64,000 nt of DNA. Source: an uncultured candidatus Brocadiaceae bacterium (GTDB lineage: Bacteria > Planctomycetota > Brocadiia > SM23-32). The DNA is taken from the NCBI GenBank assembly GCA_964510315.1, contig CAZEAP010000014.1, positions 25,242 through 89,241 on the forward strand, written 5' to 3'. Positions 4,132 through 46,510 of the stretch are shown one piece after another; within the stretch, counting starts at the first letter, position 1; every line of letters begins with the position of its first letter. Position numbers and translations under genes: made by a program. The notes beneath the pieces are model-generated. The model had not been told where the DNA came from and searched no databases. It saw nothing but the letters and a program-made list of their open reading frames with translations.

Positions 4132-5490
4132 GTGCCCCCGCTGGCCTATCTTGCGGATGACACCGCGCTCTTCAGGGAGATTCTCGACATGGCCCCGACG
4201 GTAAGACGACCTGCTCAGCCGGACGTTCCGGTGCTGCACGAAGTCGACGTCATAGTTGTGGGCGGCGGGCCGGGAGGGATCGGCGCCGCCGTGGCCGCCG
4301 CCCGGCAGGGCGCCTCCACGCTGCTTTGCGAGCAATACGGGTTCCTCGGCGGGATGGCCACCGCCGGATTGGTCAACCCCTTCATGCCGAACCATCTGGA
4401 CGGGGAGTGGTTGGACTCCGGCGTCTTCACCGACTGGCTGGAGGTTATGGACGAGATGGGAGGGCTGTCCGACGACGGCCGGACATTCTGCCACGAGACG
4501 GCGAAGCTGGCCGCCGAGAAGCTCTGTCTGGACGCCGGGGTCGAGCTGCTCTACCACGTCCGGCTCGACGTCCCCCTGATGACCGGACCTCGCATCAACT
4601 CCGTGGTGATGCTCGGAAAAAGCGGGCTCACCGCGCACCGCGCCGAGGTCTACGTGGACGCCACGGGCGACGCCGACCTGGCCGCGCGCGCCGGCTGCGA
4701 ATACACGTTCGGCCGGCCGGAGGACCAGCAGGCGCAGGCCATGACCACCTGCTTCGACCTGGCCGGGGTGGAGCCCGAACGGATGCCCGACGGGCAAACG
4801 ATCAACGCCCTCTACGATACGGCCCGGGAGGAAGGGCGGCTGGAGTGCCCCCGCCAAAACGTTCTGTGGTTCAGGAGCGTCGAGAAGGACCGCATCCACT
4901 TCAACACCACCCGGATTCTCCGGCACAAGGCCACCGACACGCTCTCCCTCTCCGAGGCCGAGATGGAGGGCCGCCGCCAGGTGCTGGACTACCTGAGATT
5001 CCTGCGCCGGGACGTGGCCGGCTTCGAGAATGCACGGCTGCACGCCATCGCGGTGAATGTCGGCGTTCGAGAGTCCCGGCACGTCCGAGGCCACGCTTTG
5101 CTGACCCGTGAGGACTTCGAGGACGCCGCCAAGTTCCCCGACGGCATCTGTCGGGTCAACTACCCCATCGATATCCACAGCCCCACCGGCGGCGACACCG
5201 AGCACGCACACCTGCCGAAAGGCGAGTGGTACGAGATTCCCTACGGCTGCCTCGTCGCGCGCGACTGTGACAACCTGCTGGTCGGCGGACGGCCGATCAG
5301 CGTGGACCACGCCGTCCACAGTTCGATGCGGGTGATGCCGCCGGCCTGCACGGTGGGCCAGGCCGCCGGGACGGCCGCCGCGATGGCCGTCGAAAGCGGC
5401 GTCCCGCCGGCCGAGATCGACGGCCGGGACGTGCGCCGCAGCCTGATCGAGCAGGGCGTCTGGCTGGACGAGGTCGCGCGCTCCACCTGA
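4132..5490 (+). CDS. FAD-dependent oxidoreductase
   Basis: Rossmann dinucleotide motif VIVVGGGPGGIGAAVAAARQG close to the N-terminus. Start may be the internal ATG at 4189. Confidence 0.75.
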   Translation: MPPLAYLADDTALFREILDMAPTVRRPAQPDVPVLHEVDVIVVGGGPGGIGAAVAAARQGASTLLCEQYGFLGGMATAGLVNPFMPNHLDGEWLDSGVFTDWLEVMDEMGGLSDDGRTFCHETAKLAAEKLCLDAGVELLYHVRLDVPLMTGPRINSVVMLGKSGLTAHRAEVYVDATGDADLAARAGCEYTFGRPEDQQAQAMTTCFDLAGVEPERMPDGQTINALYDTAREEGRLECPRQNVLWFRSVEKDRIHFNTTRILRHKATDTLSLSEAEMEGRRQVLDYLRFLRRDVAGFENARLHAIAVNVGVRESRHVRGHALLTREDFEDAAKFPDGICRVNYPIDIHSPTGGDTEHAHLPKGEWYEIPYGCLVARDCDNLLVGGRPISVDHAVHSSMRVMPPACTVGQAAGTAAAMAVESGVPPAEIDGRDVRRSLIEQGVWLDEVARST

Positions 5491-32323: not shown

Positions 32324-33884
32324 TACCTGTAAGTACTCTCTTTTGACCGACCCCTTGATCAGCGTTCGGCGTCCCGGCGGCGCGCGTCTTCAGATCGACC
32401 TCCCGGCCGTCCTCGCCGGACTGGCCAAAGATGAGATCGTCTCCTTCGAGGCGCTCCAACCTCACCAGCGACAGGCGTGGTTCTGCTTCCTTGTGCAACT
32501 GGCGGCCATCGCACTGGACCGGTCCGGCCGGGAAGAGCCCTGCCGGAACGCAGAGCAGTGGAGAGAACTTCTGATGGGGCTTACCGATGGGGATGAAGCG
32601 GCCTGGTGCCTGGTAGTCGAGGACGTCTCCCGCCCAGCCTTCATGCAGTCCCCCGTGCCGGAGGGCTCGCTGGACGAGGCCGGATATAAAGCGGACGTCG
32701 CCACGCCCGACGAACTCGACATGTTGGTGTTGTCCAAGGACCACGACGTCAAAAAACACCGCACGGCCCGCCCCGCGACAGAACACTGGCTCTACGCGCT
32801 CCTCACGCTCCAGACCCTGGAGGGGTATTCCGGCAGCCGCAACTACGGAATCATCCGCATGAACGGAGGATACGGCAGTCGCCCCCTCCTGGGCCTCGCG
32901 CCCGCCTTGGGCTGGGGGACACGGTTCCGGCGGGACGTCCCGGCCGTCCTCTCGGCACGGGAACGCCTCGTCCGGGAACGTAACTACGATCCTCAAGGCC
33001 CCGCCTTGCTCTGGCGGCTGCCCTGGGACGGTGCAAAGTCCAGTCGCATCCCCCTGGCGCAGTGCCATCCATTGTTCATCGAGGTCTGCCGAAGAATCCG
33101 GTTCCGTCGCCGCCATGCCGGGCTCGAATGCTGGCGTGCCACAACGGAAGCCGCCAGAATCGCGGCCCCCGAAGACATCAACGGCGCTACCGGCGACCCG
33201 TGGACCCCGGTGGACAAAGCGGAGAACAAGGCATTGAGCGTCGGCAGCAGCGGGTTCGGCTACGACCTTCTGCGCCGCATCCTCCTCACCGGCGACTTCG
33301 AATGGCCGGCCGCCATGGAGCGGACTCCCGCGGAGGAAGGAGGAGCTTACCTGTTGGCCCGTGCCCTGGCCCGGGGACAGGGCAAGACCGAAGGCCTCCA
33401 CCGGCGCGTCGTGCCCGTGCCGGAAAAGGCCCTCGGACGTATTTCGGACACCTCCCGGCGGGAGGAACTGGCCGAAAGGGCCGAGGAACGCGTCGATACC
33501 GCCGCAAAGGTCCAACGCAACGTCCTCTATCCCGCACTTGCCGCCTTGCTGACTGCGGGCCACGAGGCCAAGGTCGATTCGGCACAGGTGCGCCGATGGA
33601 CCGACGCCTTCGACGCGGCCGTCGACGAAGCCTTCTTCCCGGAACTCTGGGCCTCCCTCGGCGTGCCCCGAGAGGAGGCCCGCCGCCGTTGGCAGGAAAA
33701 GCTCAAGAAGTTCGCGGAGCAACAGCTCCAGGACGCCATCCAGAGCGCACCCGTGCCCTCCATCCACCGTTATCGAGCCGTCAGCGCGGCCCAGGCGATC
33801 TTCTACGGCCGTGCCAGGCAGCACCTCACAGCACTTCACCCAAGCACCGAGGAGGCTGAACATGAGCCAGCCGAAAGCAGTTGA
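32316..33884 (+). CDS. cse1: Cascade large subunit Cse1/CasA (Cas8e)
   Basis: Position and length (about 520 aa) typical of I-E. Start ATG at 32316 overlaps the cas3 stop by 8 nt. Confidence 0.8.
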   Translation: MNDTCKYSLLTDPLISVRRPGGARLQIDLPAVLAGLAKDEIVSFEALQPHQRQAWFCFLVQLAAIALDRSGREEPCRNAEQWRELLMGLTDGDEAAWCLVVEDVSRPAFMQSPVPEGSLDEAGYKADVATPDELDMLVLSKDHDVKKHRTARPATEHWLYALLTLQTLEGYSGSRNYGIIRMNGGYGSRPLLGLAPALGWGTRFRRDVPAVLSARERLVRERNYDPQGPALLWRLPWDGAKSSRIPLAQCHPLFIEVCRRIRFRRRHAGLECWRATTEAARIAAPEDINGATGDPWTPVDKAENKALSVGSSGFGYDLLRRILLTGDFEWPAAMERTPAEEGGAYLLARALARGQGKTEGLHRRVVPVPEKALGRISDTSRREELAERAEERVDTAAKVQRNVLYPALAALLTAGHEAKVDSAQVRRWTDAFDAAVDEAFFPELWASLGVPREEARRRWQEKLKKFAEQQLQDAIQSAPVPSIHRYRAVSAAQAIFYGRARQHLTALHPSTEEAEHEPAESS

Positions 33885-34410
33885 CGCCGGCGACACCGCC
33901 GAGGCCACTCTCCCGAGTGTTGTCGGCAAAGTCGCTCGTGCAATCCAGGAGCACCTTGGAACCGGCGAGGTGGCCGAGCTGCGTCGCGTCTCCCCCCGTG
34001 ACCCTTACACCCCGGCCCTGTGGAAACTGCTGCTGCTCTACGTCCCCCGGAGCTGGAGCGCCGGCCGGGACCGGGACGAGAAGGAGCGCCGCTGGGCCGC
34101 CCTGTTTATGGGCATGGCCATCACGGCCGGCCTGCATGACCCGGCCGAGCATTTCGGGCGGGCCCTGGCCCGCGCCGGCTGGTCGGAGCTTCGCTTCGTC
34201 CGCCTGATGCGCGAGTGCGGGGACGGCCTGGCCGAGGGGGTCCGCCGCCTCGCACGTTACCTGGCCGCCAAGAACCAGCACGCCGATTGGACCGACGTGG
34301 CTCAGCTCCTGCTCAATCAGGAGGGAGACTGGGCCGAACGCCACCGCCGGCGCATCGCCCGCAGCTATTACCGCGAGAAGTTCCAGCAGGAACAACAGCA
34401 GAACGACTGA
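33862..34410 (+). CDS. cse2: Cascade small subunit Cse2/CasB
   Basis: About 180-aa helical protein directly after cse1, overlapping start. Confidence 0.8.
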   Translation: MSQPKAVDAGDTAEATLPSVVGKVARAIQEHLGTGEVAELRRVSPRDPYTPALWKLLLLYVPRSWSAGRDRDEKERRWAALFMGMAITAGLHDPAEHFGRALARAGWSELRFVRLMRECGDGLAEGVRRLARYLAAKNQHADWTDVAQLLLNQEGDWAERHRRRIARSYYREKFQQEQQQND

Positions 34411-34440
34411 TTCCTTGCTCTTGATCCCGGAGGATGCACC

Positions 34441-35712
34441 ATGTCGGATGCCAGATTCGTCCAGATTCACACGTTGACCTCCTATCCCGGCGCGCTGCTC
34501 AACCGAGACGACGCCGGTTTCGCAAAGCGCCTCCCCTTCGGGGGCGCCACTCGCACCCGCATCTCCTCGCAGTGCCTGAAATACCACTGGCGCCACCACG
34601 AGGGCGAGCACGCCCTCTACGACGTCGACGACGTGCCGAAGTCCTACCGCTCCCGGGAGACCTTCCAGCGCAAGGTAGCCCATCCCCTCATCCAGGACGG
34701 CCTGCCACCACGGCTGGTCGCCTGTGCCGCTCTGACCCTTATGGAGATGGTCCTCTCCGACGACAGGCCGTCGAAGACCGATTACAAGAAGATACTCTCG
34801 GGCGGCGAGGAACTCGACGAGGTCCTCGAGTCCAGCCAGGTCACCATCCTGGGCGAGCCCGAGGTGCGCTACCTGCGGAAGCTGGTGCGCGAAACCGTTG
34901 AGCCCCTGCGCGACGAACTCGGCGCGCTCTGGGCAGACCCCGAGGCGAAACTGTCTTCTGAGCAAATCGAGACCGCCATCAAGGCCTGCAACGACATCAG
35001 CAAGGGCGACCTGAAGAAAAACTTGAAGGGGCTCGCCCTCGCCACCGGCCTGGACGCCGCCATGTTCGGCCGGATGGCCACCAGCGACGCCCTCGCCAGA
35101 GGCGACGCCGCCGTGCACGTCGCCCACGCCTTCACCACACACGCCGAAGAGAGCGAAACCGATTATTTCTCCGCCGTGGATGAACTCAGACAGGCCGGCG
35201 GTGAAGGCGAACTCGGCGCCGGTCATATCAATACCAGCGAACTCAACAGCGGCCTTTTCTACGGCTACGTGGTCGTGGACGTCCCGCTCCTGGTCTCCAA
35301 CCTGGAAGGATGCGGGCGCGAGGACTGGCGCGATGCGGACCGCCGGCTGCCCGCAGAGGTCGTCCGTCGCATGGTCCACATCGTCGCCACCGTCTCGCCC
35401 GGGGCCAAGCTGGGCTCCACCGCGCCCTACGCTCACTCCGAGTGCGTCTTCATCGAGGCCGGCTCCGTACAGCCCCGCACCCTCGCCAATGCCTTCCGGG
35501 CGCCGGTTGAAGCCCCGCCGGACGTGCTGGCCAACTCCTGCCAGGCACTCGGAGCCCACTTGCGGCAGCTTGACGCCATGTACGGGCGCCAAACCGAGCG
35601 GAGGCTCTCCGGCACCGAGCCGGCCGAGGCGATCGCCGAGGCCCTCGGCGTAAACCATACCGTCCCCCTCGACGAGGCCGCCGAATGGGCCGCCGAAAAG
35701 GTAGGGGGGTGA
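34441..35712 (+). CDS. cas7e: Cascade backbone subunit Cas7e/CasC
   Basis: MSDARFVQIHTLTSYPGALLNRDDAGFAKRLPFGG N-terminus is the canonical Cas7e start. Confidence 0.85.
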   Translation: MSDARFVQIHTLTSYPGALLNRDDAGFAKRLPFGGATRTRISSQCLKYHWRHHEGEHALYDVDDVPKSYRSRETFQRKVAHPLIQDGLPPRLVACAALTLMEMVLSDDRPSKTDYKKILSGGEELDEVLESSQVTILGEPEVRYLRKLVRETVEPLRDELGALWADPEAKLSSEQIETAIKACNDISKGDLKKNLKGLALATGLDAAMFGRMATSDALARGDAAVHVAHAFTTHAEESETDYFSAVDELRQAGGEGELGAGHINTSELNSGLFYGYVVVDVPLLVSNLEGCGREDWRDADRRLPAEVVRRMVHIVATVSPGAKLGSTAPYAHSECVFIEAGSVQPRTLANAFRAPVEAPPDVLANSCQALGAHLRQLDAMYGRQTERRLSGTEPAEAIAEALGVNHTVPLDEAAEWAAEKVGG

Positions 35713-35716
35713 GACG

Positions 35717-36457
35717 ATGCACATCCTCTTAATTCGATTCGAGGCCCCCCTGATGAGCTTCGGGGCACCCATGGTCGACTACCGGGGAGTCATACAGCCC
35801 TATCCCGCCCTCTCCATGCTCTGCGGGATGCTGGGCAACGCCCTCGGCTACCATCACCGTGAGACCGACAGGCTGCAGCGCCTCCAGGAGCGCATCCGCT
35901 ACGCCTGCCGACGGGACGCGCCCGGCCGGCGCCTGCGCGACTACCAGACCGTCGACCTCGGCCAGGAGTTCATGCGCGACGACCACGCCTGGACCACCCG
36001 CGGCGAACTGGAAAGGCGCAAGGGCGGCTCCGCCAGCACCGGCACCCACATCCGCCTGCGGGACTACTGGGCCGACGCCGCCTGCACCGTCGCCCTCTCT
36101 CTCGAGCCACCCGAAGAGCGCCCCCGGCTCGAGGAGTTGGAGCATGCACTCCACCGCCCCGAGCGCCCGCTGTTCATCGGGCGCAAGTGCTGCCTGCCCG
36201 CCGCACGCCTGCTGATGGGGCGAACGGAGGAGCCCCGCCTGACCGACGCCCTTCGCTCCGCCCCCCTGCCGGAATGGGCCGAAGGACGCTCGCAGGCGGA
36301 TGCCTGGTGGCCCAGTCGGCCCGATGCCGAAGAACCCGAAGCCATGCAGCGTCCCGTCACCGACGCACGCGATTGGGCCAACCAGATCCACGTCGGCGAA
36401 CGCTGGATCGCGCAGGGCAAGATTCAGCTCAACACCCGGGAGACCGAAAATGACTGA
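35717..36457 (+). CDS. cas5e: Cascade subunit Cas5e/CasD
   Basis: MHILLIRFEAPLMSFGAPMVDYRG N-terminus characteristic of Cas5e. Confidence 0.85.
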   Translation: MHILLIRFEAPLMSFGAPMVDYRGVIQPYPALSMLCGMLGNALGYHHRETDRLQRLQERIRYACRRDAPGRRLRDYQTVDLGQEFMRDDHAWTTRGELERRKGGSASTGTHIRLRDYWADAACTVALSLEPPEERPRLEELEHALHRPERPLFIGRKCCLPAARLLMGRTEEPRLTDALRSAPLPEWAEGRSQADAWWPSRPDAEEPEAMQRPVTDARDWANQIHVGERWIAQGKIQLNTRETEND

Positions 36458-37220
36458 TACCGCAACTCAGAACTCAACGCTCCATATGGTTCAGATGTGG
36501 CTGGACACGCGGCGACTCACCGAACTCGCCCGCGCCCTCCATCTGCCTCTACGCCACGTCGACGAGAACTACCTCACTCATTGTGCACTGGCGGAGTTGT
36601 TCGGGGACCGGGCCCCGGGGCCCTTCTGCGTCGAAGACTCCCCCGGCAGGCACCTGCGCGTGCTTGCCTACGGCTCTGAGCCGGACGCCCGGCTTCACGA
36701 AATCGCCCGCAAGCTGGCCGGTCCCATGGTCTACCGCATCTGCGATTGGGACCGCCTCGCATCCAAGCCCATGCCCGAGAGCTTTGAAGCCGGCACCCGG
36801 CTCCGCTTCACGGTTCGCGCATGTCCCGTCGTCCGCAAGTCCTCCGCCGGCAAGTACCACAGCGCCGGCGCCGAGGTCGACGCCTTCCTCTCCCGCGTCT
36901 GGGAGGTCGACGACCGGAGCGTACCCGTCAACCGGGAAGATGTCTACCGTCAATGGCTGCTCGGCCAGTTCGAACGGCGGGGCGGGGCCGACCTGGCAGC
37001 GCAAACCGTGCGCCTGGAGAGGTTCAGTCTAGAACGCATGCTGCGCAGATCCGACGGCGGGTCGCGAAAGACGACCGTCATCAAGCGACCCGCCGCCACC
37101 CTGTCCGGACGTCTGCAGGTCACCGACGGTCGGCAGTTCCGAGAGCTGATCCGCCGCGGCGTAGGCCGCCACAAAACCTTCGGCTTCGGCATGCTCAAGG
37201 TCCAACCGCCCGGGAGGTAA
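36450..37220 (+). CDS. cas6e: CRISPR repeat endoribonuclease Cas6e/CasE
   Basis: C-terminal glycine-rich loop GVGRHKTFGFGMLKV typical of Cas6e. ATG at 36450 overlaps the cas5e stop; alternative start at 36486. Confidence 0.8.
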   Translation: MTDTATQNSTLHMVQMWLDTRRLTELARALHLPLRHVDENYLTHCALAELFGDRAPGPFCVEDSPGRHLRVLAYGSEPDARLHEIARKLAGPMVYRICDWDRLASKPMPESFEAGTRLRFTVRACPVVRKSSAGKYHSAGAEVDAFLSRVWEVDDRSVPVNREDVYRQWLLGQFERRGGADLAAQTVRLERFSLERMLRRSDGGSRKTTVIKRPAATLSGRLQVTDGRQFRELIRRGVGRHKTFGFGMLKVQPPGR

Positions 37221-37224
37221 AGCC

Positions 37225-38109
37225 ATGCTCAAAGGACGCCTCGGTCTGCACACAGCCAGAATCCCTCAAGCCGACCGCCACGGCCTCCTCTGGCTCGAAC
37301 GCGGCAAACTCTACGTGGAGGAAGGCACCCTCGCCTTCGTCACCGCCGGCAGCGATTCCCTCGAACAGGGCAGATACCAGATACCCTACCAGGCCATCTC
37401 CAACATCCTGCTCGCCCCGGGCTCCACAGTCAGCCACGACGCATTCCGGCTGCTCGCCTCCCATGGCACCGGCCTGCTCATCGTGGGCTCCGGAGGGGTC
37501 AGGTTCTACGCCGCCAGCGCGCCGTTCGGAGCCGACCGCTCCGAACTCGCACGGCGCCAGACCCGCCTTTGGGCCGACGAAGACCGGCGCATCGAGGTGG
37601 CCCGGAGGATGTACGCCATACGCCTCGGCGAAACCCTCCCGCACCAGGACCTCGATGCCCTTCGTGGCGTGGAAGGCCACCGCATGAAAATACTTTACAA
37701 GCGCCTGGCCAGGAAACACGGCGTCCAATGGTCGGGACGCCGTTACGACAGATCAAGCCCCCAGAGCGACGACCTCCCCAACACGGCTATAAACCATGCC
37801 TCTTCCGCCGTCCGTGCCGCCGCGATGGTCGCCGTCGCCGCCACCGCCACCATCCCTCAGCTCGGCTTCATCCACGAGGCCTCCGCCCAGGCATTCGTGC
37901 TGGACATCGCGGACCTGTTCCGCGTCAACGTCACCCTCACCGTCGCCTTTCGCGCGGTGAAGCGGCACGAGAGGCAAGGCTGGGAGGACATCGAGAGAAC
38001 CACTCGTCGGCTCACCGGCCGGACACTGAGGGAACAGGAAGTCATCCCCCAGATGATTGATAACATCAAGGAGCTGCTCAATGTCCATGACACTGGCCAT
38101 AACGCGTAA
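37225..38109 (+). CDS. cas1: CRISPR integrase Cas1 (I-E type)
   Basis: Conserved Cas1e blocks (ILLAPGSTVSHDAFRLLASHGTGLLIVGSGGVRFYA; metal-binding E/H/D region ...FIHEA...). Confidence 0.9.
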   Translation: MLKGRLGLHTARIPQADRHGLLWLERGKLYVEEGTLAFVTAGSDSLEQGRYQIPYQAISNILLAPGSTVSHDAFRLLASHGTGLLIVGSGGVRFYAASAPFGADRSELARRQTRLWADEDRRIEVARRMYAIRLGETLPHQDLDALRGVEGHRMKILYKRLARKHGVQWSGRRYDRSSPQSDDLPNTAINHASSAVRAAAMVAVAATATIPQLGFIHEASAQAFVLDIADLFRVNVTLTVAFRAVKRHERQGWEDIERTTRRLTGRTLREQEVIPQMIDNIKELLNVHDTGHNA

Positions 38110-38437
38110 CGTACCCGGTCGCTTCCGGGGCTTCCTGGCCTCCTGCATGCTGGAGGTCGGCCCCGGCGTCTATGCCGCACCCCACCTGCGCAAAGCCGTC
38201 CGCGAACGCCTCTGGCGGGTCATGCTCGACTGGGCCGGTCAGGTTCCCGAGGGCGGAGGAGTGATGCTCATGTGGCGTGACAGGGAAGCGCCCTCCGGCC
38301 TCAGTATCCGCACCCTCGGCTGGCCCAAAACCGAGATCGTCTCCCACGAGGGCATCTGGCTCAGCCAGCGCGACCTCACCGCCGAACACGACGTCGAAGA
38401 ACTCCAGCAACTCGTCGCCGGAACCGAAGAGGACTGA
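38081..38437 (+). CDS. cas2: CRISPR adaptation protein Cas2 (I-E type)
   Basis: MSMTLAITRNVPGRFRGFLASCMLEVGPGVYA matches the Cas2e N-terminus. Overlaps the cas1 3' end. Confidence 0.85.
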   Translation: MSMTLAITRNVPGRFRGFLASCMLEVGPGVYAAPHLRKAVRERLWRVMLDWAGQVPEGGGVMLMWRDREAPSGLSIRTLGWPKTEIVSHEGIWLSQRDLTAEHDVEELQQLVAGTEED

Positions 38438-38584
38438 ACCATCCTCACCGCTCTTTGACAAATAGCTATACGGGGGCTGGCCCAACGGGGAGGCCGGCCC
38501 CTCCATGTCTCACGGGTTGCACCGACAGATTGAGCCCATACAATATATTGTAGTCGGCTTGCTGCCGGCCCGCAGCATGTGAGA
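38438..38584 (+). promoter_or_regulatory. CRISPR leader
   Basis: 147 bp between cas2 and the first repeat. Contains TTGACA at 38455 and the AT-rich perfect palindrome TACAATATATTGTA (about 38543-38556). Confidence 0.6.
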
Positions 38585-41500
38585 GGTTCCCCCGCACACG
38601 CGGGGATAGTCCCGAGAGAAGCTGCGCGACGAGCGAAAGGCGCGCGGTTCCCCCGCACACGCGGGGATAGTCCCAAAATCAAACCCGGTTGCCAGCCCGG
38701 TGAGTAGGTTCCCCCGCACACGCGGGGATAGTCCTTGCGCCGGGTCGGCCGGAAGGCTCCGGGGGGGGGTTCCCCCGCACACGCGGGGATAGTCCCAAGG
38801 CTGGGAATACCGGCGGGGCTCAGGAGCTGGTTCCCCCGCACACGCGGGGATAGTCCTTGGGGGAAGAGGCAGCACTGCCGGTACGTAGTGGTTCCCCCGC
38901 ACACGCGGGGATAGTCCGCGATGGAGAAACCTGGACCAGCGGGGCACCGCGGTTCCCCCGCACACGCGGGGATAGTCCGCGACTGAAGGCCGTGACGCAG
39001 GAAATGCCCCCGGTTCCCCCGCACACGCGGGGATAGTCCGCGGATTGGGAATCGGCGGGATACAAAACGGGGGGTTCCCCCGCACACGCGGGGATAGTCC
39101 CGAGGCGGGGCAGTGGGCGCTGGCGGCGATGAAGGTTCCCCCGCACACGCGGGGATAGTCCGTAGCCGCTCATCTCAACTCCTCGCTCTGGCGAGGTTCC
39201 CCCGCACACGCGGGGATAGTCCCGGCGGTGCACGGGCCTGACACGCGGCGTGCAGGGTTCCCCCGCACACGCGGGGATAGTCCGCGGGTGTGGACGGCAA
39301 TCAAGGACCTGGCGAGGGTTCCCCCGCACACGCGGGGATAGTCCCCAACGTGCGATCGAGCTGACCCTGACTGGCCTGGTTCCCCCGCACACGCGGGGAT
39401 AGTCCTTTTGTTGGAGGAACAAAAGGCTCTGAGGGAGTGGTTCCCCCGCACACGCGGGGATAGTCCCCCGAGACTTTAACTGCATACGTGCATCCTATTG
39501 GTTCCCCCGCACACGCGGGGATAGTCCGTGACAGTACCATCGCCGACCAGAACGCCGACGGGTTCCCCCGCACACGCGGGGATAGTCCCTTACTGCTGTT
39601 GAAATGCCGACCGCTTCTCGTGGTTCCCCCGCACACGCGGGGATAGTCCTTGCGAGCCTTGCTGTTCGGCAGGCCCTCGACGGGTTCCCCCGCACACGCG
39701 GGGATAGTCCCGCTGGCATGTACTGGCCCGGGGGAGGAGCCCAGGTTCCCCCGCACACGCGGGGATAGTCCGATGGTCCAACGCAAACGCTTTGCGTTGT
39801 CCTTGGTTCCCCCGCACACGCGGGGATAGTCCATTGGTACGGGGGCTCCGGTCAGCGCGGTATCGGGTTCCCCCGCACACGCGGGGATAGTCCTTCTCAT
39901 CTTCTTTGGACTCCTTTTGGGGAAAAGGTTCCCCCGCACACGCGGGGATAGTCCCGGTCTTTTCATCTACGCAATCGAAGTAGATGAGGTTCCCCCGCAC
40001 ACGCGGGGATAGTCCCTTCGGTTTCGTCTGTTGCGGGAACGTGCCCTTGGTTCCCCCGCACACGCGGGGATAGTCCCATCCGGCCTCCAAAGCTTGACAC
40101 TGCCCTACCGGTTCCCCCGCACACGCGGGGATAGTCCTTCTCATCCGCCTCCAACCCGTACACGAACAAAGGTTCCCCCGCACACGCGGGGATAGTCCGT
40201 CCTTTGTGGGCAAGGGGTTATGACGTGCAATGGTTCCCCCGCACACGCGGGGATAGTCCCCAGCTTTTCCCCAAAAGGAGTCCAAAGAAGATGGTTCCCC
40301 CGCACACGCGGGGATAGTCCCCTTGCGGAATCGACAGATAGCGAGCCCAACCAGGTTCCCCCGCACACGCGGGGATAGTCCCCTTCCGAACCTACTGCGT
40401 GAAAACTGGACAGAGGTTCCCCCGCACACGCGGGGATAGTCCCACCCCCTCGATCTTCGCGGCCGCCCACTCGAAGGTTCCCCCGCACACGCGGGGATAG
40501 TCCCGGGAGACAGACTGATGGCACTGACGGCAGCGAGGTTCCCCCGCACACGCGGGGATAGTCCCGTAGACCTCTCCAGTCCAGTCCAGCATCGCCGGGT
40601 TCCCCCGCACACGCGGGGATAGTCCATCCGGAGCTTGGTCAATCTGTTTCGGATCTAAGGTTCCCCCGCACACGCGGGGATAGTCCCCAGCTCCCAGCAC
40701 GTTGCGCACAGCCGGGCTCGGTTCCCCCGCACACGCGGGGATAGTCCCCTACTCTTACGGGAGGACGCCGATGGCCGATGGGTTCCCCCGCACACGCGGG
40801 GATAGTCCCCGGGCGAAGCTCGTGCCGAAGATACCGGGGTCGGTTCCCCCGCACACGCGGGGATAGTCCCTCGCCGGCCTCCAGGTCCGTCGTGGGGCAC
40901 TCGGTTCCCCCGCACACGCGGGGATAGTCCGCCTTATTACCTGAAGCGCGATTTACGCGAGGCGGTTCCCCCGCACACGCGGGGATAGTCCGAGATAGCG
41001 GATTACTTCCGTGGCGGTTGTCTGGGTTCCCCCGCACACGCGGGGATAGTCCCTATCCGCCCGCATAGCCCTTGTGCTAACCCTGGGTTCCCCCGCACAC
41101 GCGGGGATAGTCCTCGCAAAAGATCAAGGCCCCGGGTTCCAAGCAAGGTTCCCCCGCACACGCGGGGATAGTCCTCACGAAGACGGACGTTGAGAGGGCC
41201 CTTAAAGGGTTCCCCCGCACACGCGGGGATAGTCCCTCAGCCATTTGACCCCCCCATATGGATAACTGGGTTCCCCCGCACACGCGGGGATAGTCCCGTA
41301 GCCTTCGAGTAGGCAATGCCGTCGGCGTTGGTTCCCCCGCACACGCGGGGATAGTCCTTCTCCCCCTCCCGGGCGCTGCCGGAGGCACCGGGTTCCCCCG
41401 CACACGCGGGGATAGTCCCCTTGTATAGGTCAACGTACGGAGCCGTTTTCTGGTTCCCCCGCACACGCGGGGATAGTCCGCCGTTGACCGGGCACGTGGC

Positions 41501-44500
41501 GAGGTCGCGGTGGGTTCCCCCGCACACGCGGGGATAGTCCCGGCCAGCCCCGTAATCGTCGTTCCGGTATGCGGGTTCCCCCGCACACGCGGGGATAGTC
41601 CGGTGCGCACGCGCGTGATGCGGCGCGACCTGCGGGTTCCCCCGCACACGCGGGGATAGTCCCACGCCGAGGGTGCCCAGCACCTCCGTCAGGCTGGTTC
41701 CCCCGCACACGCGGGGATAGTCCCGCATCGGCGTCCGTGGGGTCCGTCATGCTGATGGTTCCCCCGCACACGCGGGGATAGTCCGCGCAGGTCCTCCGGC
41801 CGGGCGCCACCCTCGAGGGTTCCCCCGCACACGCGGGGATAGTCCGCGGGTGGACGTGACACCCCGCTACCTCAGCGAGGTTCCCCCGCACACGCGGGGA
41901 TAGTCCCGACGGCCCGGAGTGGGTGATCGAGATCGAGGAGGTTCCCCCGCACACGCGGGGATAGTCCGCGCACGATCGCCCCCCTGCCGGAGGGCATGAC
42001 GGTTCCCCCGCACACGCGGGGATAGTCCGTGTACGACCGCCGGCAGCCGCGGGTCATCGGGGGTTCCCCCGCACACGCGGGGATAGTCCCCTCTACATGA
42101 TATGCACGGTTGCGCATGTCCTGGTTCCCCCGCACACGCGGGGATAGTCCCGGTACTCCCGTCTACGGCATCCCCCTCTCTGCGGTTCCCCCGCACACGC
42201 GGGGATAGTCCTCGCTCCTACACCGGCAACGTCCGGGGACTCGCGGTTCCCCCGCACACGCGGGGATAGTCCCGACGGCATCGAGGGTATCCTTGCCGAG
42301 GTCGTGGTTCCCCCGCACACGCGGGGATAGTCCACTCGCTCGCGGGGTCCGGCGGGGTCTGACCCGGGTTCCCCCGCACACGCGGGGATAGTCCCAGCGT
42401 GTGGCCGGAGCGCTTCCCGGCCGGGGAGGTTCCCCCGCACACGCGGGGATAGTCCGCCTTATTACCTGAAGCGCGATTTACGCGAGGCGGTTCCCCCGCA
42501 CACGCGGGGATAGTCCGAGATAGCGGATTACTTCCGTGGCGGTTGTCTGGGTTCCCCCGCACACGCGGGGATAGTCCCTATCCGCCCGCATAGCCCTTGT
42601 GCTAACCCTGGGTTCCCCCGCACACGCGGGGATAGTCCTCGCAAAAGATCAAGGCCCCGGGTTCCAAGCAAGGTTCCCCCGCACACGCGGGGATAGTCCT
42701 CACGAAGACGGACGTTGAGAGGGCCCTTAAAGGGTTCCCCCGCACACGCGGGGATAGTCCCTCAGCCATTTGACCCCCCCATATGGATAACTGGGTTCCC
42801 CCGCACACGCGGGGATAGTCCCGTAGCCTTCGAGTAGGCAATGCCGTCGGCGTTGGTTCCCCCGCACACGCGGGGATAGTCCTTCTCCCCCTCCCGGGCG
42901 CTGCCGGAGGCACCGGGTTCCCCCGCACACGCGGGGATAGTCCCCTTGTATAGGTCAACGTACGGAGCCGTTTTCTGGTTCCCCCGCACACGCGGGGATA
43001 GTCCTTGGGGGGGTTAGTCGTCGTCCTGGAGTACTGCGGTTCCCCCGCACACGCGGGGATAGTCCCTTCGGTTTCGTCTACGGGAACATGCTGGCCTTGG
43101 TTCCCCCGCACACGCGGGGATAGTCCGATGCTCCAGCGAAGGCGCTTCTGATTCTGCTTGGTTCCCCCGCACACGCGGGGATAGTCCGTCAGGCCCTTAT
43201 TGGCTTGGCTACCGATATTCGGTTCCCCCGCACACGCGGGGATAGTCCCGTAGGGGACGTACACCGCTCCAGATCTGGCCTGGTTCCCCCGCACACGCGG
43301 GGATAGTCCGTAACGGCAGAGGAGCCCAGGGGAAAGAAATCCGGTTCCCCCGCACACGCGGGGATAGTCCCCTGGGCGGGGCAGTCGACGCATCCGCACT
43401 GGAGGTTCCCCCGCACACGCGGGGATAGTCCGTAGCCGCTCATCTCAGCTCCTCGCCCGGGCGAGGTTCCCCCGCACACGCGGGGATAGTCCCTGCTCGC
43501 ACGGGGAGGCAGCGCATACGCTAAAGGTTCCCCCGCACACGCGGGGATAGTCCTAGGGGAACCGGGAGGCAAAGTTCTGGTTCTGGGGTTCCCCCGCACA
43601 CGCGGGGATAGTCCGGTAACAGAACAATAAGGCAGTGAATGAAGGAGGGTTCCCCCGCACACGCGGGGATAGTCCGTGCCCCGGTGCCAGAGGAGCCGGC
43701 GGCGCTATGGTTCCCCCGCACACGCGGGGATAGTCCTCCCGTTTGGATGAACAGCCTTCCCATTCCACAGGTTCCCCCGCACACGCGGGGATAGTCCTCT
43801 ACAGGTTTCTGGACATCCCTCTTACATAGCGGTTCCCCCGCACACGCGGGGATAGTCCCCATCCCTTCTTCGTCTGCATGAAGAAGGAGCTGGTTCCCCC
43901 GCACACGCGGGGATAGTCCCGTGGTTCTTTACACGGAAGTTGTCAGCCTTGAGGTTCCCCCGCACACGCGGGGATAGTCCCCTGATGGCAAAGAACCGTG
44001 AAACCGGACGGGCGGTTCCCCCGCACACGCGGGGATAGTCCCGGTGATGAGGAGTTCATCCCTCTGGCGAATGAGGTTCCCCCGCACACGCGGGGATAGT
44101 CCCGCCGCCGGAGCCGATCCCGTACTCGACAGGCTGGTTCCCCCGCACACGCGGGGATAGTCCCTCAACCTGCACGATCTCATGGCACCAGTCAAGGGTT
44201 CCCCCGCACACGCGGGGATAGTCCTTCTAAAACGTGGCATCCTGCGGTATCTGAGGTGGTTCCCCCGCACACGCGGGGATAGTCCTCCGGCTCAGAGCAG
44301 TTGCTGCCTGCCGCGGAAGGTTCCCCCGCACACGCGGGGATAGTCCTTTGCTATAGCAAACGGTGTGCCAACGTGCCGCGGTTCCCCCGCACACGCGGGG
44401 ATAGTCCCCGCCACCGCCCGCCCTCGAACGCCGGCTGGAGGGTTCCCCCGCACACGCGGGGATAGTCCGCCGTTCCAGGCGGACTGGATCGACGCGAGCC

Positions 44501-44652
44501 GGGTTCCCCCGCACACGCGGGGATAGTCCCGAGCGGGGGCAGTGGGCGCTGGCGGCGATGAAGGTTCCCCCGCACACGCGGGGATAGTCCCGGCCTCACC
44601 AGGCCGCGGAGCAGCGACTGGCGGGTTCCCCCGCACACGCGGGGATAGTCCT
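38585..44652 (+). CRISPR. Type I-E CRISPR array: 100 repeats of 29 bp (GGTTCCCCCGCACACGCGGGGATAGTCCN) with 99 spacers of 32 nt
   Basis: Strict 61-bp periodicity from 38585; the 100th repeat sits at exactly 44624. Repeat hairpin CCCCGC-ACAC-GCGGGG plus an 8-nt 3' handle ATAGTCCN whose last base varies (C/T/G/A). Leader-proximal to cas2, same strand as the cas genes. Confidence 0.95.
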
Positions 44653-44696
44653 TTTGTGTCCCCATTTCCCAAAACAGGCGAAAGGAGAAAGGAAAG

Positions 44697-44876
44697 ATGT
44701 TTAGAAAGCTCAGCCGGTGGTGGTATACAACCGGCCGGAGAATAAGGAAAGGCCGCGCCTTGTGGCACTTAGCCACAGGGCGCCCGGGGCCTTTTGTGTA
44801 TAGGCTCCTGTACAAGGCTTCGTTCCGGATCATCGCACCGGTGATCCGGGGCCTAATCAATCTGTTTCGGGTCTAA
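44697..44876 (+). CDS. small basic protein (59 aa) encoded inside the CRISPR locus between the main array and the terminal mini-array
   Basis: AAAGGAGAAAGGAAAG-ATG strong RBS. MFRKLSRWWYTTGRRIRKGRALWHLATGRPGPFVYRLLYKASFRIIAPVIRGLINLFRV. Lower GC and rare codons (AGA, AGG, ATA, TTA, CTA). Coding frame supported by silent/conservative differences to a matching spacer. Confidence 0.55.
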   Translation: MFRKLSRWWYTTGRRIRKGRALWHLATGRPGPFVYRLLYKASFRIIAPVIRGLINLFRV

Positions 44877-44909
44877 TTGTGCGTGGGTTCCCCGCCAGGC
44901 GGTCGTGCC

Positions 44910-44999
44910 GGTTCCCCAGCACACGCGGGGATAGTCCGTGGGCGAAGGGCTTGAGACGCGTGAGCCTGTCGGTTCCCCCGCACACGCGGGGATAGTCCC
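44910..44999 (+). CRISPR. terminal mini-array: degenerate repeat (C9A, stem-disrupting) - 32-nt spacer - perfect repeat, preceded by a 24-nt repeat-like fragment (44886-44909)
   Basis: GGTTCCCCAGCACACGCGGGGATAGTCCG / TGGGCGAAGGGCTTGAGACGCGTGAGCCTGTC / GGTTCCCCCGCACACGCGGGGATAGTCCC. Separated from the main array by 257 bp of non-repeat DNA. Confidence 0.8.
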
Positions 45000-45148
45000 G
45001 GTCTCCAGCAGGACGCGCACCGTTGCGACGCGTCCGCGGATGGCGGTACGGTGCAGAGGCGTGTGGGCTTCGTCGTTCTGGATGTGGGGTGCGGGGTGGC
45101 GGAAGGGGGTTGATTCGGGGGGCGGGTTGGGGGAGAATCTACACTGAG

Positions 45149-46510
45149 ATGATCCAGGACGAACGGGTACAGGCGCTGAACGACGGGGAGGTGGCCGGGG
45201 GCAGTTACGTGGTGTACTGGATGCAGCAGGCCGCCCGCGCCGACTGCAACCACGCCCTGGAGTACGCCGTCCGCAGGGCCAACGAACTGCAGCTCCCTGT
45301 TGTGGCGGCTTTCGGGATCACCCAGAGGTTCCCGGGCGCCAACGAGCGGCATTACGCCTTCATGCTGGAGGGGCTCGCTGAAACACGCTCCCGGCTGGCG
45401 GAGCGGGGCATTGGGCTGGTGGTGCGCCTCAGCCCTCCGGTGGAGCTGATCCTGGGGCTGGCCGGGGAGGCGGCGCTGGTGGTGACCGACCGGGGCTACC
45501 TGAAGATTCAGCGCAACTGGCGACGCCGCGCGGCCCAACGGGCCGCCTGCCGGGTGGAGCAGGTCGAGACCGACGTGGTGGTGCCGGTGGAGACGGCCTC
45601 CGATGAGGAACAGTGGGCCGCCCGCACGCTGCGTCCCCGCATCCACGAGCATCTGGACAGGTTCCTGGCGCCCCTGGAGGAGACCTCCCTGGAGAGGGAC
45701 TCGGTGGGGTTGGTGGAAGAGGGCCTGGAGCTGGACGACGTGGAGGGTCTGCTGGAGGAGATGCGGGTCAGCCGCAGCGCCGGGCCGGTCTCCGCGTTCC
45801 GGGGGGGCGCTTCGCGGGCGGAGCGGTTGCTGGAGGAGTTCTGCGCGGACCGGCTGCCCGGCTACGCCGAGAGCGCGGGCGACCCCAACGCGGAGTGCGT
45901 CAGCCACATGAGCCCTTACCTGCACTTCGGGCAGATTTCCCCTCTCCGCATTGCCCTGCGGGTCTCGGCGGAGGAGGGAGCCGGGCGGAAGAACATCGAC
46001 GCCTACCTCAAGGAGCTGATCGTGCGGAGGGAGTTGAGCATGAACTTCTGCCTTTACAACGGGCGCTACGACTCCTTCGCGTGCCTGCCGGAATGGGCGA
46101 GGCAGACGCTGCGGCAGCATGCCGGCGACGAGCGGCCCTACCTCTACAGCCGGGAGGAGCTGGCGAAGGCCGGGACGCACGATCCCTACTGGAATGCCGC
46201 CCAGCGGCGCATGATGCAGACGGGGAAGATGCACAACCGCATGCGGATGTACTGGGGGAAGAAGATATTGGAATGGACGGCGGACCCCGAAGAGGCCTTC
46301 CGCACGGCGCTGGAGCTGAACAACCGCTACGAGCTGGACGGACGCGACCCGAACAGCTACGCCGGAGTGGCCTGGTGTTTCGGCAAGCACGACCAGGGGT
46401 GGGCCGAACGGGATGTGTTCGGGAAGGTGCGCTACATGAACGCGGCCGGCCTGGAGAGGAAGTTCGACGCGGAGACGTACGTCCGGGAGACACCCGGAGC
46501 GGGGGGATAG
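45149..46510 (+). CDS. phr: class II CPD deoxyribodipyrimidine photolyase
   Basis: N-terminal YVVYWMQQAARADCNHALEYA (class II signature) and C-terminal FAD-binding block WNAAQRRMMQTGKMHNRMRMYWGKKILEW. ATG at 45149. Confidence 0.85.
   Translation: MIQDERVQALNDGEVAGGSYVVYWMQQAARADCNHALEYAVRRANELQLPVVAAFGITQRFPGANERHYAFMLEGLAETRSRLAERGIGLVVRLSPPVELILGLAGEAALVVTDRGYLKIQRNWRRRAAQRAACRVEQVETDVVVPVETASDEEQWAARTLRPRIHEHLDRFLAPLEETSLERDSVGLVEEGLELDDVEGLLEEMRVSRSAGPVSAFRGGASRAERLLEEFCADRLPGYAESAGDPNAECVSHMSPYLHFGQISPLRIALRVSAEEGAGRKNIDAYLKELIVRRELSMNFCLYNGRYDSFACLPEWARQTLRQHAGDERPYLYSREELAKAGTHDPYWNAAQRRMMQTGKMHNRMRMYWGKKILEWTADPEEAFRTALELNNRYELDGRDPNSYAGVAWCFGKHDQGWAERDVFGKVRYMNAAGLERKFDAETYVRETPGAGG

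What the first reader, a model, noticed from the sequence alone, without database searches (positions are those of the whole stretch)
40627..40658. Array spacer matches the 3' end of the array-embedded small ORF; mismatches fall at Cascade non-pairing positions or are silent/conservative
Spacer TCCGGAGCTTGGTCAATCTGTTTCGGATCTAA against 44845-44876 TCCGGGGCCTAATCAATCTGTTTCGGGTCTAA gives 27/32 identity. The variable, PAM-derived last repeat base (A) also matches the base preceding the protospacer. Mismatches are at spacer positions 6, 9, 11, 12 and 27. Positions 6 and 12 are the flipped-out, non-pairing positions in I-E Cascade, and the seed (1-5, 7-8) is intact. In the ORF frame the differences are Ser/Gly, TTG/CTA (Leu/Leu, doubly silent), Val/Ile and Ile/Val. 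So the spacer was acquired from a protein-coding homolog of this gene that is under purifying selection. A crRNA that is partially complementary to a resident gene, with seed match and some distal mismatches, is the configuration that allows Cascade binding without efficient Cas3 cleavage. That configuration is used for gene regulation, or it marks escape from autoimmunity.
Basis: seen in the sequence. Interest (0 to 1): 0.8.

Follow-up and report, generated by a model that had tools for sequence, protein, structure and literature searches.

The report
Array spacer matches array-embedded insert
A normal CRISPR spacer really does resemble (27 of 32 bases) the end of a 257-base foreign-looking piece lodged in the old end of the same array, but this looks like two samplings of related mobile DNA rather than a gene-regulation device.

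Summary
Spacer 34 (40627-40658) matches 44845-44876 at 27/32 (28/33 with the variable base A). The next best of 100 spacers against the rest of the window is 23/32.

The target lies in a 257-nt non-repeat insert (44653-44909) between perfect repeat 100 and two trailer repeats of a complete type I-E locus.

- The 59-aa ORF is an orphan, with no homologue in 5.8 G or 1.84 G protein sets and no family hit.
- It contains a -37 kcal/mol terminator-like hairpin in mid-ORF.
- The "purifying selection" pattern is not significant (p about 0.05-0.14).
- No donor protospacer was found in viral, plasmid, genome or metagenome collections.
- The pairing is not the known "bind but do not cut" geometry. It runs to the PAM-distal end, three of five mismatches are wobble-type, and the target is the ORF's 3' end rather than a promoter. 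The guide is a canonical spacer, and the flank is TG-A.

The array also holds four other old/new variant spacer pairs.

Best reading: the insert is a captured fragment of mobile DNA, and a diverged relative of it was later sampled as spacer 34. This is unusual in layout but ordinary in mechanism. It cannot be tested further because the organism is a singleton.

The parts
29675..38437 (+). Type I-E cas operon: cas3, cse1, cse2, cas7, cas5, cas6e, cas1, cas2
   Evidence: Pfam hits Cas3_HD, Cse2, Cas_CT1975, Cas5d, CRISPR_assoc, Cas1 and Cas2CT1978. cse1 (32256-33884) has no Pfam hit. The same operon is on Logan contig L044.
38438..38584 (+). Leader with a promoter-like site (CCGACA-16-TATATT, 38522-38549)
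   Evidence: No similarity to the insert.
38585..44652 (+). Main array: 100 identical 28-nt repeats GGTTCCCCCGCACACGCGGGGATAGTCC, each followed by a variable base and a 32-nt spacer
   Evidence: Variable-base use is C51, G26, T20, A3.
40626..40658 (+). Spacer 34 (between repeats 34 and 35), with its variable base A. This is the spacer of the finding.
44653..44909 (+). 257-nt non-repeat insert between repeat 100 and repeat 101. GC is 56% against 66% for the window. It is strongly structured.
   Evidence: gap of 258 including the variable base. (GC, and no other copy in the window). (fold z -3.45 and -3.73).
44697..44876 (+). 59-aa ORF (pI 12, no Asp or Glu), with a Shine-Dalgarno-like AAAGGAG at 44681-44687. 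It is an orphan.
   Evidence: No homologues. No family or PDB hit. AF2 single-sequence model gives two helices at pLDDT 69.
44746..44795 (.). 20-bp GC-rich hairpin flanked by an A-tract and by UUUUGUGU. It looks like a bidirectional intrinsic terminator and covers ORF codons 17-33.
   Evidence: dG -37 kcal/mol, z -4.99. (terminator-like on both strands). (top 0.17% of 60-nt windows).
44822..44852 (.). 14-bp hairpin whose 3' arm covers the flank and positions 1-8 of the protospacer-like site
   Evidence: dG -22.5 kcal/mol, z -5.32. (inverted repeat I3).
44844..44876 (+). Resident protospacer-like site X (A + 32 nt), upstream flank GTG. It ends exactly 33 nt before repeat 101.
44886..44902 (+). 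Partial, divergent repeat-like motif GGTTCCCCGCCAGGCGG, 9 nt after the ORF stop and 7 nt before repeat 101
   Evidence: local alignment score 22, against a shuffle 95th percentile of 20 and maximum of 28. It does not fold like the repeat (z -0.75).
44910..44999 (+). Trailer unit: repeat 101 (C to A at 44918 in the stem), spacer 101, repeat 102
   Evidence: Spacer 101 has no seed-type target nearby.
45149..46510 (+). Downstream DNA photolyase gene (chromosomal flank)

Best explanation
Spacer 34 is an ordinary immunity spacer of an active type I-E system. The 257-nt segment at the old end of the array is a captured fragment of foreign, probably mobile-element, DNA sitting between intact repeats. 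A diverged relative of the same element (about 84% identical over the 33 nt) was met later, and the same stretch was sampled as a normal 33-nt spacer. The spacer-to-array match is therefore similarity by descent between two records of one element family, not a designed guide-target pair. The resident copy is tolerated most likely because its flank (TG-A) is not a functional PAM. The mismatches are less likely to be the reason. The match, the anatomy and the lack of homologues are shown. The foreign origin of the insert, the order of events and the PAM argument are inferred.
For: (1) The match is far beyond chance.
(2) The same array holds four other pairs in which a leader-proximal spacer is an in-register variant of a trailer-proximal one: 9/98 at 31/33, 10/80 at 30/33, 20/75 at 22/33 and 24/74 at 22/33 with an indel. 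There is also a reverse-complement overlapping pair, 22/28. Repeated sampling of diverged versions of the same elements is therefore the habit of this array, and spacer 34 / X is a fifth new/old pair.
(3) The insert differs in composition (56% against 66% GC), has no other copy in the window and is unrelated to the leader. It is bounded by a perfect repeat on the left.
(4) Other arrays of this repeat family carry comparable repeat-flanked non-repeat segments. L036 has 281 nt, present twice, which appears to contain a junction between two genes. L027 has 417 nt.
(5) All 100 repeats and a duplicated 9-spacer block are identical, so 5/32 divergence in place is unlikely.
(6) No other spacer derives from the chromosome around the site, so there is no sign of priming or Cas3 activity there.
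(7) The features of known regulatory guides are absent (see the membership test).
Against: No donor element was found, so neither the foreign origin nor a perfect protospacer is demonstrated. How a 257-nt piece comes to lie between repeats is unknown. X ends exactly 33 nt (one spacer length) before repeat 101, and a partial repeat lies in those 33 nt. This hints at a more specific history, such as a relic spacer or recombination at a repeat-like site. The PAM of this system could not be determined. 'AA upstream of a 33-nt protospacer' is borrowed from S. thermophilus CRISPR4 (PMC10470216). The ORF has some gene-like traits: a Shine-Dalgarno motif plus ATG, GC3 0.71 against GC1 0.47, a frame open from repeat 100 to the shared TAA, and conservative changes.
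Confidence: 0.5

Rival explanations
1. X is the relic of an old spacer. An earlier acquisition of the same protospacer, in the same register, sat near the trailer, and its flanking repeats were later destroyed by rearrangement. The 59-aa ORF is then a chance open frame that happens to run into the relic.
For: X has exactly the register of spacer 34 (same variable base A, same last base). It lies at the old end, like the old members of the four other variant pairs. It ends exactly 33 nt before repeat 101, and those 33 nt contain a partial repeat. Chance ORFs are abundant in this GC-rich window.
Against: No repeat remnant lies upstream of X: 9/28 matches in register, and local alignments are no better than shuffles. 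The neighbouring repeats have 0 or 1 mismatches, so extreme local decay needs several ad hoc events. A repeat-only deletion has no known mechanism.
Confidence: 0.17
2. Regulatory or addiction module, the first reader's idea (CreTA/CrePA-like). Cascade loaded with crRNA 34 binds the resident site without cutting and controls a toxic or useful small gene embedded in the array. Alternatively, the spacer excludes incoming relatives of a resident cargo that is released from the pre-crRNA by Cas6e.
For: The seed is intact. The ORF has a Shine-Dalgarno motif plus ATG and is in the sense orientation between two Cas6e sites. It contains rare AGA, ATA and AGG codons. CRISPR-repressed toxins, including a phage-derived protein toxin, exist (PMC8501985; 10.1101/2024.01.05.574328).
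Against: The guide is a canonical spacer, not a degenerate mini-array. Pairing extends to the PAM-distal end rather than stopping at 10-19 nt. The target is the ORF's 3' end, not a promoter. The crRNA pairs with the template strand and has the same sense as the mRNA. The flank is TG-A. In E. coli I-E, off-target Cascade binding did not change local expression (PMC5904413). There is no promoter-like site in front of the ORF. A terminator-like hairpin lies inside the ORF. The ORF is not conserved anywhere. The trailer mini-unit spacer 101 has no seed-type target.
Confidence: 0.06
3. Self-acquisition followed by divergence. The spacer was taken from the resident copy, and the target then mutated to escape autoimmunity.
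For: Self-derived spacers are common, and mutated targets are one documented outcome (PMC6990116). The variable base A matches.
Against: There are five changes and none in the seed. The rest of the array shows zero divergence among repeats and duplicated spacers. The flank is a non-AA sequence, which would have made acquisition and targeting unlikely in the first place.
Confidence: 0.07
4. Assembly artefact. The insert, or its junction with repeat 100, is a chimeric join in a metagenome-assembled contig.
For: The source is a singleton contig. All three proteins tested form single-member clusters, all seen on one 89-kb contig. Logan contigs of the same run break at both ends of the array, and the ORF is not recorded there.
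Against: Spacers are unique and longer than the repeat, so k-mers above about 60 bridge each repeat. The insert is followed by two further repeats and then by chromosomal genes in a consistent orientation.
Confidence: 0.05

Closest known systems
Self-targeting / self-matching CRISPR spacers (reviewed in PMC6990116)
   Same: An array spacer has a near match in the host's own DNA. Host and spacer coexist, presumably through a defective PAM or mismatches.
   Different: The matched site lies inside the same CRISPR array, in a repeat-flanked insert, rather than in a prophage or chromosomal gene. The match is 27/32 and probably arose from a diverged relative rather than from self DNA.
CreTA / CrePA CRISPR-repressed toxin modules and CreR / crlRNA regulatory mini-arrays (PMC8501985; 10.1101/2024.01.05.574328; PMC10120712; 10.1101/2023.03.10.532045)
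   Same: A Cascade guide with incomplete complementarity to a site in its own CRISPR-cas locus, next to a small ORF with a strong ribosome-binding site and rare Arg/Ile codons.
   Different: Those guides come from stand-alone degenerate repeats. They pair only at nt 1-5 and 7-11 (up to about 19) with a promoter that carries a canonical PAM. Here a canonical spacer pairs along its full length with the 3' end of the ORF, and the flank is TG-A.
Repeated or primed re-sampling of the same protospacers, and recombination or duplication within arrays (PMC4524480; PMC5059440; 10.1101/2022.05.19.492656)
   Same: Several in-register variant spacer pairs and a 9-spacer block duplication occur in one array, giving old and new records of one element family.
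   Different: One member of this pair is not a 33-nt spacer but part of a 257-nt segment.
Mobile-element-borne solitary repeats / RNA anti-CRISPRs and viral mini-arrays (PMC10651486; 10.1101/2024.10.29.618823)
   Same: A repeat-like motif lies directly downstream of a small ORF in DNA that looks foreign. Such a motif could also promote recombination with array repeats.
   Different: The motif is only about 17 nt, diverges from the local repeat, is not predicted to form the repeat hairpin, and is now inside a host array.

Membership tests
Canonical type I-E CRISPR array spacer | 28/29-nt palindromic repeat in the E. coli-like sense, 32/33-nt spacers, and an adjacent cas3-cse1-cse2-cas7-cas5-cas6e-cas1-cas2 operon with a leader | tested here: met
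   Spacer 34 is flanked by two perfect repeats.
Self-targeting spacer | Near-perfect match to the host's own DNA outside the repeat-spacer units | tested here: met
   27/32 (28/33) to 44845-44876, against 23/32 or less for all other spacers. The site is nevertheless inside the array locus.
Self-targeting spacer | Target flanked by a PAM functional for this system | tested here: inconclusive
   The flank is GTG-A. No protospacer for any of the 91 unique spacers was found, so the PAM is unknown. A is the rarest variable base, 3/100. The related S. thermophilus CRISPR4 system acquires next to AA (PMC10470216), which is absent here.
CreTA / CrePA / CreR regulatory guide | Guide encoded by a stand-alone mini-array with degenerate repeats | tested here: not met
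   Spacer 34 sits between perfect repeats in the main array. No repeat-like sequence (6 mismatches or fewer) exists elsewhere in the window on either strand.
CreTA / CrePA / CreR regulatory guide | Complementarity limited to the PAM-proximal part (10-19 nt), so that the R-loop does not lock | tested here: not met
   Positions 13-26 and 28-32 all match. The mismatches at 9, 11 and 12 are rU-dG or rG-dT wobble types. Locking depends on pairing at the PAM-distal end (PMC6859484).
CreTA / CrePA / CreR regulatory guide | Target lies in the promoter of the regulated gene | tested here: not met
   The target is the last 11 codons plus the stop of the ORF. No promoter-like site lies in 44300-45300.
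CreT-type tRNA-sequestering toxin | Strong Shine-Dalgarno motif, AUG, consecutive identical rare codons directly downstream, then a stem-loop | tested here: inconclusive
   The Shine-Dalgarno motif and ATG are present. AGA is codon 3, and AGA-ATA-AGG are codons 15-17. There are no two consecutive identical rare codons. Stem-loops are present. Toxicity was not tested.
Bona fide protein-coding gene | Homologues or a family assignment, or codon-level conservation | tested here: not met
   Only itself in 5.8 G clusters. Only repeat-derived junk in 1.84 G representatives. No Pfam, PHROG, NCBIfam, PADLOC or PDB hit. The substitution test gives p 0.05-0.14.
Intrinsic (Rho-independent) terminator | GC-rich hairpin immediately followed by a U-tract | tested here: met
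   44746-44795, dG -37 kcal/mol, z -5, followed by UUUUGUGU. Termination itself was not tested.
Solitary repeat unit / RNA anti-CRISPR | Stand-alone sequence that mimics the repeat, including its hairpin | tested here: inconclusive
   GGTTCCCCGCCAGGCGG aligns to repeat positions 1-19 with two gaps and one mismatch, which is borderline against shuffles. No repeat-like hairpin is predicted.

The most novel reading that the evidence does not exclude
The 257-nt segment is functional cargo carried inside a CRISPR array: a small basic protein or a structured RNA, transcribed as part of the pre-crRNA and cut out by Cas6e at repeats 100 and 101. The array keeps a spacer against its relatives. That spacer either excludes competing copies arriving on mobile elements, or holds Cascade on the resident copy as a CrePA-like safeguard. 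A related reading is that I-E adaptation or repeat recombination can capture fragments of several hundred bp as 'giant spacers', as also seen in L036 and L027.
Probability: 0.07. Interest if true: 0.8.

Novelty: new member of a known kind. Interest (0 to 1): 0.3.

Why it matters
If the ordinary reading holds, the locus is a tidy natural example of one array recording the same mobile-element family repeatedly over time: five old/new pairs. It also shows foreign fragments much longer than a spacer ending up between intact repeats. That matters for array-finding software, which splits such arrays, and for ideas about how arrays are rearranged.

It also serves as a caution. A seed-matched partial self-match is not by itself evidence of Cascade-mediated regulation. 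The extent of PAM-distal pairing, the PAM, and the position of the target relative to a promoter all have to fit.

If the novel reading were true, it would be the first gene or RNA cargo expressed from within a CRISPR array and guarded by that array.

Tried and rejected
- Donor protospacer, exact and near-exact. A pattern tolerant at the five variable positions found 0 hits in viral contigs.
- Donor protospacer, peptide-level pattern for IR[GS]L[IV]NLFR[IV]-stop. It gave 1 hit in viral contigs, 0 in genome representatives and 4 in metagenomes. All hits are AT-rich chance matches.
- blastn of the insert against phages and plasmids gave only chance hits with E-values around 1.
- A back-translated protein scan of viral contigs gave none confirmed.
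- PAM inference from other spacers gave nothing. Two conserved spacer cores were tried against viral contigs. The whole array and the 91 concatenated spacers were tried against phages and plasmids, and returned only other arrays' repeats or chance hits.
- 'The insert is a second leader': no similarity to the leader.
- 'The insert is a decayed stretch of array': only the partial repeat at 44886 exceeds shuffles, and only marginally.
- 'Spacer 101 is a CreA-like guide for the ORF': no seed-type target.
- Known RNA family: none in Rfam.
- Relatives of the locus. The repeat occurs in 38 loci of many phyla, but none shares spacers or the insert.
- Exact-protein look-ups found only one Logan run, with contigs that stop at the array. 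All clusters are singletons.
- The single-sequence structure model (two helices, pLDDT 69) was too weak to justify a fold search.
Full report
**Anatomy**

The window carries a complete type I-E system on the + strand. The genes cas3, cse1, cse2, cas7, cas5, cas6e, cas1 and cas2 span 29675-38437. All except cse1 have Pfam hits.

A 147-nt leader follows, with a promoter-like site at 38522-38549. After it come 100 identical copies of GGTTCCCCCGCACACGCGGGGATAGTCC, each followed by one variable base and a 32-nt spacer (38585-44652).

After repeat 100 there are 257 nt with no repeat (44653-44909). Then come repeat 101 (one C-to-A change in the stem, at 44918), one spacer, and repeat 102. A photolyase gene follows. 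The repeat has the E. coli-like sense, so crRNAs have the + strand sequence, and the old end of the array is at about 45000.

**The observation**

Spacer 34 (40627-40658) and 44845-44876 agree at 27/32. The variable base A before each also agrees. Mismatches are at positions 6, 9, 11, 12 and 27, as stated, and all are transitions.

I scanned every spacer against both strands of the non-array window. The best scores were 27 for this pair, 23 for four spacers, and lower for the rest. The expected number of chance pairs of at least 27/32 is about 1e-3 or less.

Only 3 of 100 spacers use A as the variable base.

**What the target is**

The 257-nt insert has 56% GC, against 66% for the window. It has no other copy in the window and no similarity to the leader.

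It contains an ATG ORF of 59 codons (44697-44876). AAAGGAG lies 9 nt upstream of the start, and the frame is open from the TAG inside repeat 100.

The protein has pI 12, no acidic residue and 11 Arg. GC at codon positions 1, 2 and 3 is 0.47, 0.53 and 0.71.

It is an orphan:
- Only itself among 5.8 G protein clusters.
- Only itself, plus translated tandem-repeat junk, among 1.84 G representatives.
- No hit in Pfam, PHROGs, NCBIfam, PADLOC or the PDB.
- A single-sequence AlphaFold model shows two helices at pLDDT 69. I did not consider that informative.

The insert is unusually structured on both strands (z -3.45 and -3.73).
- A 20-bp GC-rich hairpin at 44746-44795 has dG -37 kcal/mol and z -5. 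It lies between an A-rich run and UUUUGUGU, so it looks like a bidirectional intrinsic terminator. It sits in codons 17-33 of the ORF. It ranks in the top 0.17% of 60-nt windows despite the lower GC.
- A second 14-bp hairpin (44822-44852, z -5.3) covers the flank and the first eight bases of the matched site.

There is no promoter-like site before the ORF and no Rfam family.

Nine nt after the stop lies GGTTCCCCGCCAGGCGG. This is a divergent partial repeat, of borderline significance against shuffles. It abuts repeat 101 after 7 nt. The matched site ends exactly 33 nt, one spacer length, before repeat 101.

**Is the ORF a conserved gene?**

In the ORF frame the spacer encodes IRSLVNLFRI* and the resident copy IRGLINLFRV*. 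This is the only one of six frames without a stop or a radical change.

However, five random transitions in this stretch give an equally or more conservative result, with the stop kept, in 14% of trials. Five random substitutions of any kind do so in 4.6%.

Together with the Shine-Dalgarno motif, the open frame and the GC3 excess, this makes a real gene possible. The mid-ORF terminator-like hairpin, the composition and the complete lack of relatives argue against it. I put a real gene at roughly one in three. 'Purifying selection' is not shown.

**Search for the donor**

All searches came back empty:
- A pattern tolerant at the five variable sites found nothing in viral contigs.
- A codon-degenerate pattern for the last ten residues plus the stop gave one hit in viral contigs, none in 185,579 species genomes and four in metagenomes. 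All are AT-rich chance matches.
- blastn of the insert against phages and plasmids, and a back-translated scan of viral contigs, found nothing.
- No other spacer of the array has a database protospacer either. The PAM of this system therefore remains unknown.

The organism is a singleton. Its proteins form one-member clusters, and the only other trace is one Logan run whose contigs stop at the array.

**Context from the array itself**

Four other pairs of spacers are in-register variants of each other, always one leader-proximal and one trailer-proximal:

| Pair | Identity |
|---|---|
| 9/98 | 31/33 |
| 10/80 | 30/33 |
| 20/75 | 22/33 |
| 24/74 | 22/33, with a 3-nt indel |

In addition, spacers 22 and 28 overlap on opposite strands, and a block of nine spacers is duplicated exactly. 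This host has therefore repeatedly re-sampled diverged versions of the same elements. Spacer 34 and site X form a fifth new/old pair.

The perfect identity of all repeats and of the duplicated block makes 5/32 divergence in place unlikely. The spacer most probably came from a relative, not from the resident copy.

**Context from other arrays**

The same repeat (loop variable) occurs in 38 loci from Dehalococcoidia, Alphaproteobacteria, Brocadiaceae and others. None shares spacers or the insert.

Several of them also hold long non-repeat segments between intact repeats:
- 281 nt, present twice, in L036. This segment appears to carry the end of one ORF and the start of another that resembles a metallophosphoesterase, a resemblance I recall rather than tested.
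- 417 nt in L027.
- 917 nt in L042.
- An insertion sequence encoding a Mutator-family transposase in L014.

None of these segments is matched by a spacer.

**Mechanism**

The known Cascade regulators do not look like this.

CreA, CreR and other crRNA-like guides come from stand-alone degenerate mini-arrays. They pair only with nt 1-5 and 7-11 (up to about 19), with a promoter flanked by a canonical PAM (PMC8501985; 10.1101/2024.01.05.574328; PMC10120712).

In I-E, seed plus PAM is enough for binding. Such binding did not alter local expression, and more than 18 bp is needed for interference and priming (PMC5904413). R-loop locking, which licenses Cas3, depends on pairing at the PAM-distal end (PMC6859484).

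Here positions 13-26 and 28-32 are all paired. The mismatches at 9, 11 and 12 are rU-dG or rG-dT wobble types, and those at 6 and 27 are rA-dC. None is of the classes reported as most harmful (PMC12871591). Positions 6 and 12 are flipped out in any case.

With a permissive PAM this target should therefore be cut or should prime, not merely be bound. Four further points:
- The target is the 3' end of the ORF, not a promoter.
- The crRNA has the same sense as the ORF, so no RNA-RNA pairing is possible, and it pairs with the template strand.
- The flank is TG-A, whereas the closest studied system with 28-nt repeats and 33-nt spacers acquires next to AA (PMC10470216).
- No spacer in the array derives from the surrounding chromosome, so nothing suggests Cas3 activity at the site.

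Escape from autoimmunity is also a poor fit, because the seed is untouched.

**Verdict**

The match is real and non-random. The best-supported explanation (about 0.5) is similarity by descent: a captured fragment of foreign DNA at the old end of the array, and a later ordinary spacer from a diverged relative. The resident copy is probably protected by a non-permissive flank.

| Rival | Probability | Note |
|---|---|---|
| Relic spacer whose repeats were lost | about 0.17 | Favoured by the exact 33-nt spacing and the partial repeat |
| Self-acquisition followed by divergence | about 0.07 | |
| Regulatory or addiction module | about 0.06 | |
| Assembly artefact | about 0.05 | |

The layout is unusual but the mechanism is ordinary. 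Without relatives or the donor sequence, the case cannot be pushed further computationally.

Noticed in passing
window 40931-41479 and 42456-43004: A block of nine consecutive spacers with their repeats (spacers 39-47) is duplicated exactly, 1525 nt downstream (spacers 64-72). This is either a segmental duplication within the array or an assembly effect.
   Followed up: partly
window spacers at 39101/44530, 39162/43432, 39772/43127, 40016/43066; also 39894/40260: There are four in-register variant pairs of a new (leader-side) and an old (trailer-side) spacer: 31/33, 30/33, 22/33, and 22/33 with a 3-nt indel. One further pair of spacers overlaps on opposite strands. The same protospacers of diverged elements were sampled repeatedly.
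   Followed up: partly
window 38585-44652: The variable base after the 28-nt repeat is C in 51 spacers, G in 26, T in 20 and A in only 3. No protospacer could be found for any spacer, so the PAM of this system is undetermined.
   Followed up: partly
window 44746-44795: A very stable hairpin (dG -37 kcal/mol, z -5) lies between an A-tract and UUUUGUGU. It may be the terminator of the pre-crRNA transcript, which would leave repeat 101, spacer 101 and repeat 102 untranscribed.
   Followed up: partly
window 44650-44659 / 44790-44799 and 44784-44792 / 44846-44854: There are short exact direct repeats inside the insert. CCTTTTGTGT occurs twice, the first copy spanning the repeat 100 / insert junction. 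CCGGGGCCT occurs twice, 62 nt apart, the second copy inside the matched site. They may be recombination scars or chance.
   Followed up: no
window 44877-44909: The matched site ends exactly 33 nt (one spacer length including the variable base) before repeat 101. Those 33 nt contain a divergent partial repeat, GGTTCCCCGCCAGGCGG. No explanation tried accounts for both facts.
   Followed up: partly
window 44918: Repeat 101 has a C-to-A change that breaks a pair in the middle of the Cas6e hairpin stem. Repeat 102 is perfect.
   Followed up: no
window 32256-33884: The gene in the cse1/cas8e position (542 aa as listed) has no Pfam hit at E <= 0.01, unlike every other cas gene of the operon. It is probably a divergent large subunit, which could also mean an unusual PAM.
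   Followed up: no
L036 (reverse strand) 1641-1921 and 2194-2474; L027 233-649; L042 6483-7399; L014 3581-4698: Other I-E arrays with the same repeat also hold long non-repeat segments between intact repeats: 281 nt (twice), 417 nt and 917 nt. L014 holds an IS encoding a Mutator-family transposase. The L036 segment appears to contain a junction between two genes, so it is a random fragment rather than a functional gene.
   Followed up: partly
L006-L043: The 28-nt repeat (loop variable) is shared by arrays in Dehalococcoidia, Chloroflexota, Alphaproteobacteria (Chelativorans, Sphingobium, Novosphingobium, Citreicella), Brocadiaceae, Planctomycetota and Thermotogae MAGs. This indicates wide horizontal spread of this I-E variant.
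   Followed up: no
L007 (reverse strand) 4565-4720, 5704, 6823: A Dehalococcoidia array with degenerate repeats contains three diverged copies of one spacer (31/32 and 28/32). This is another case of similar spacers within one array.
   Followed up: no
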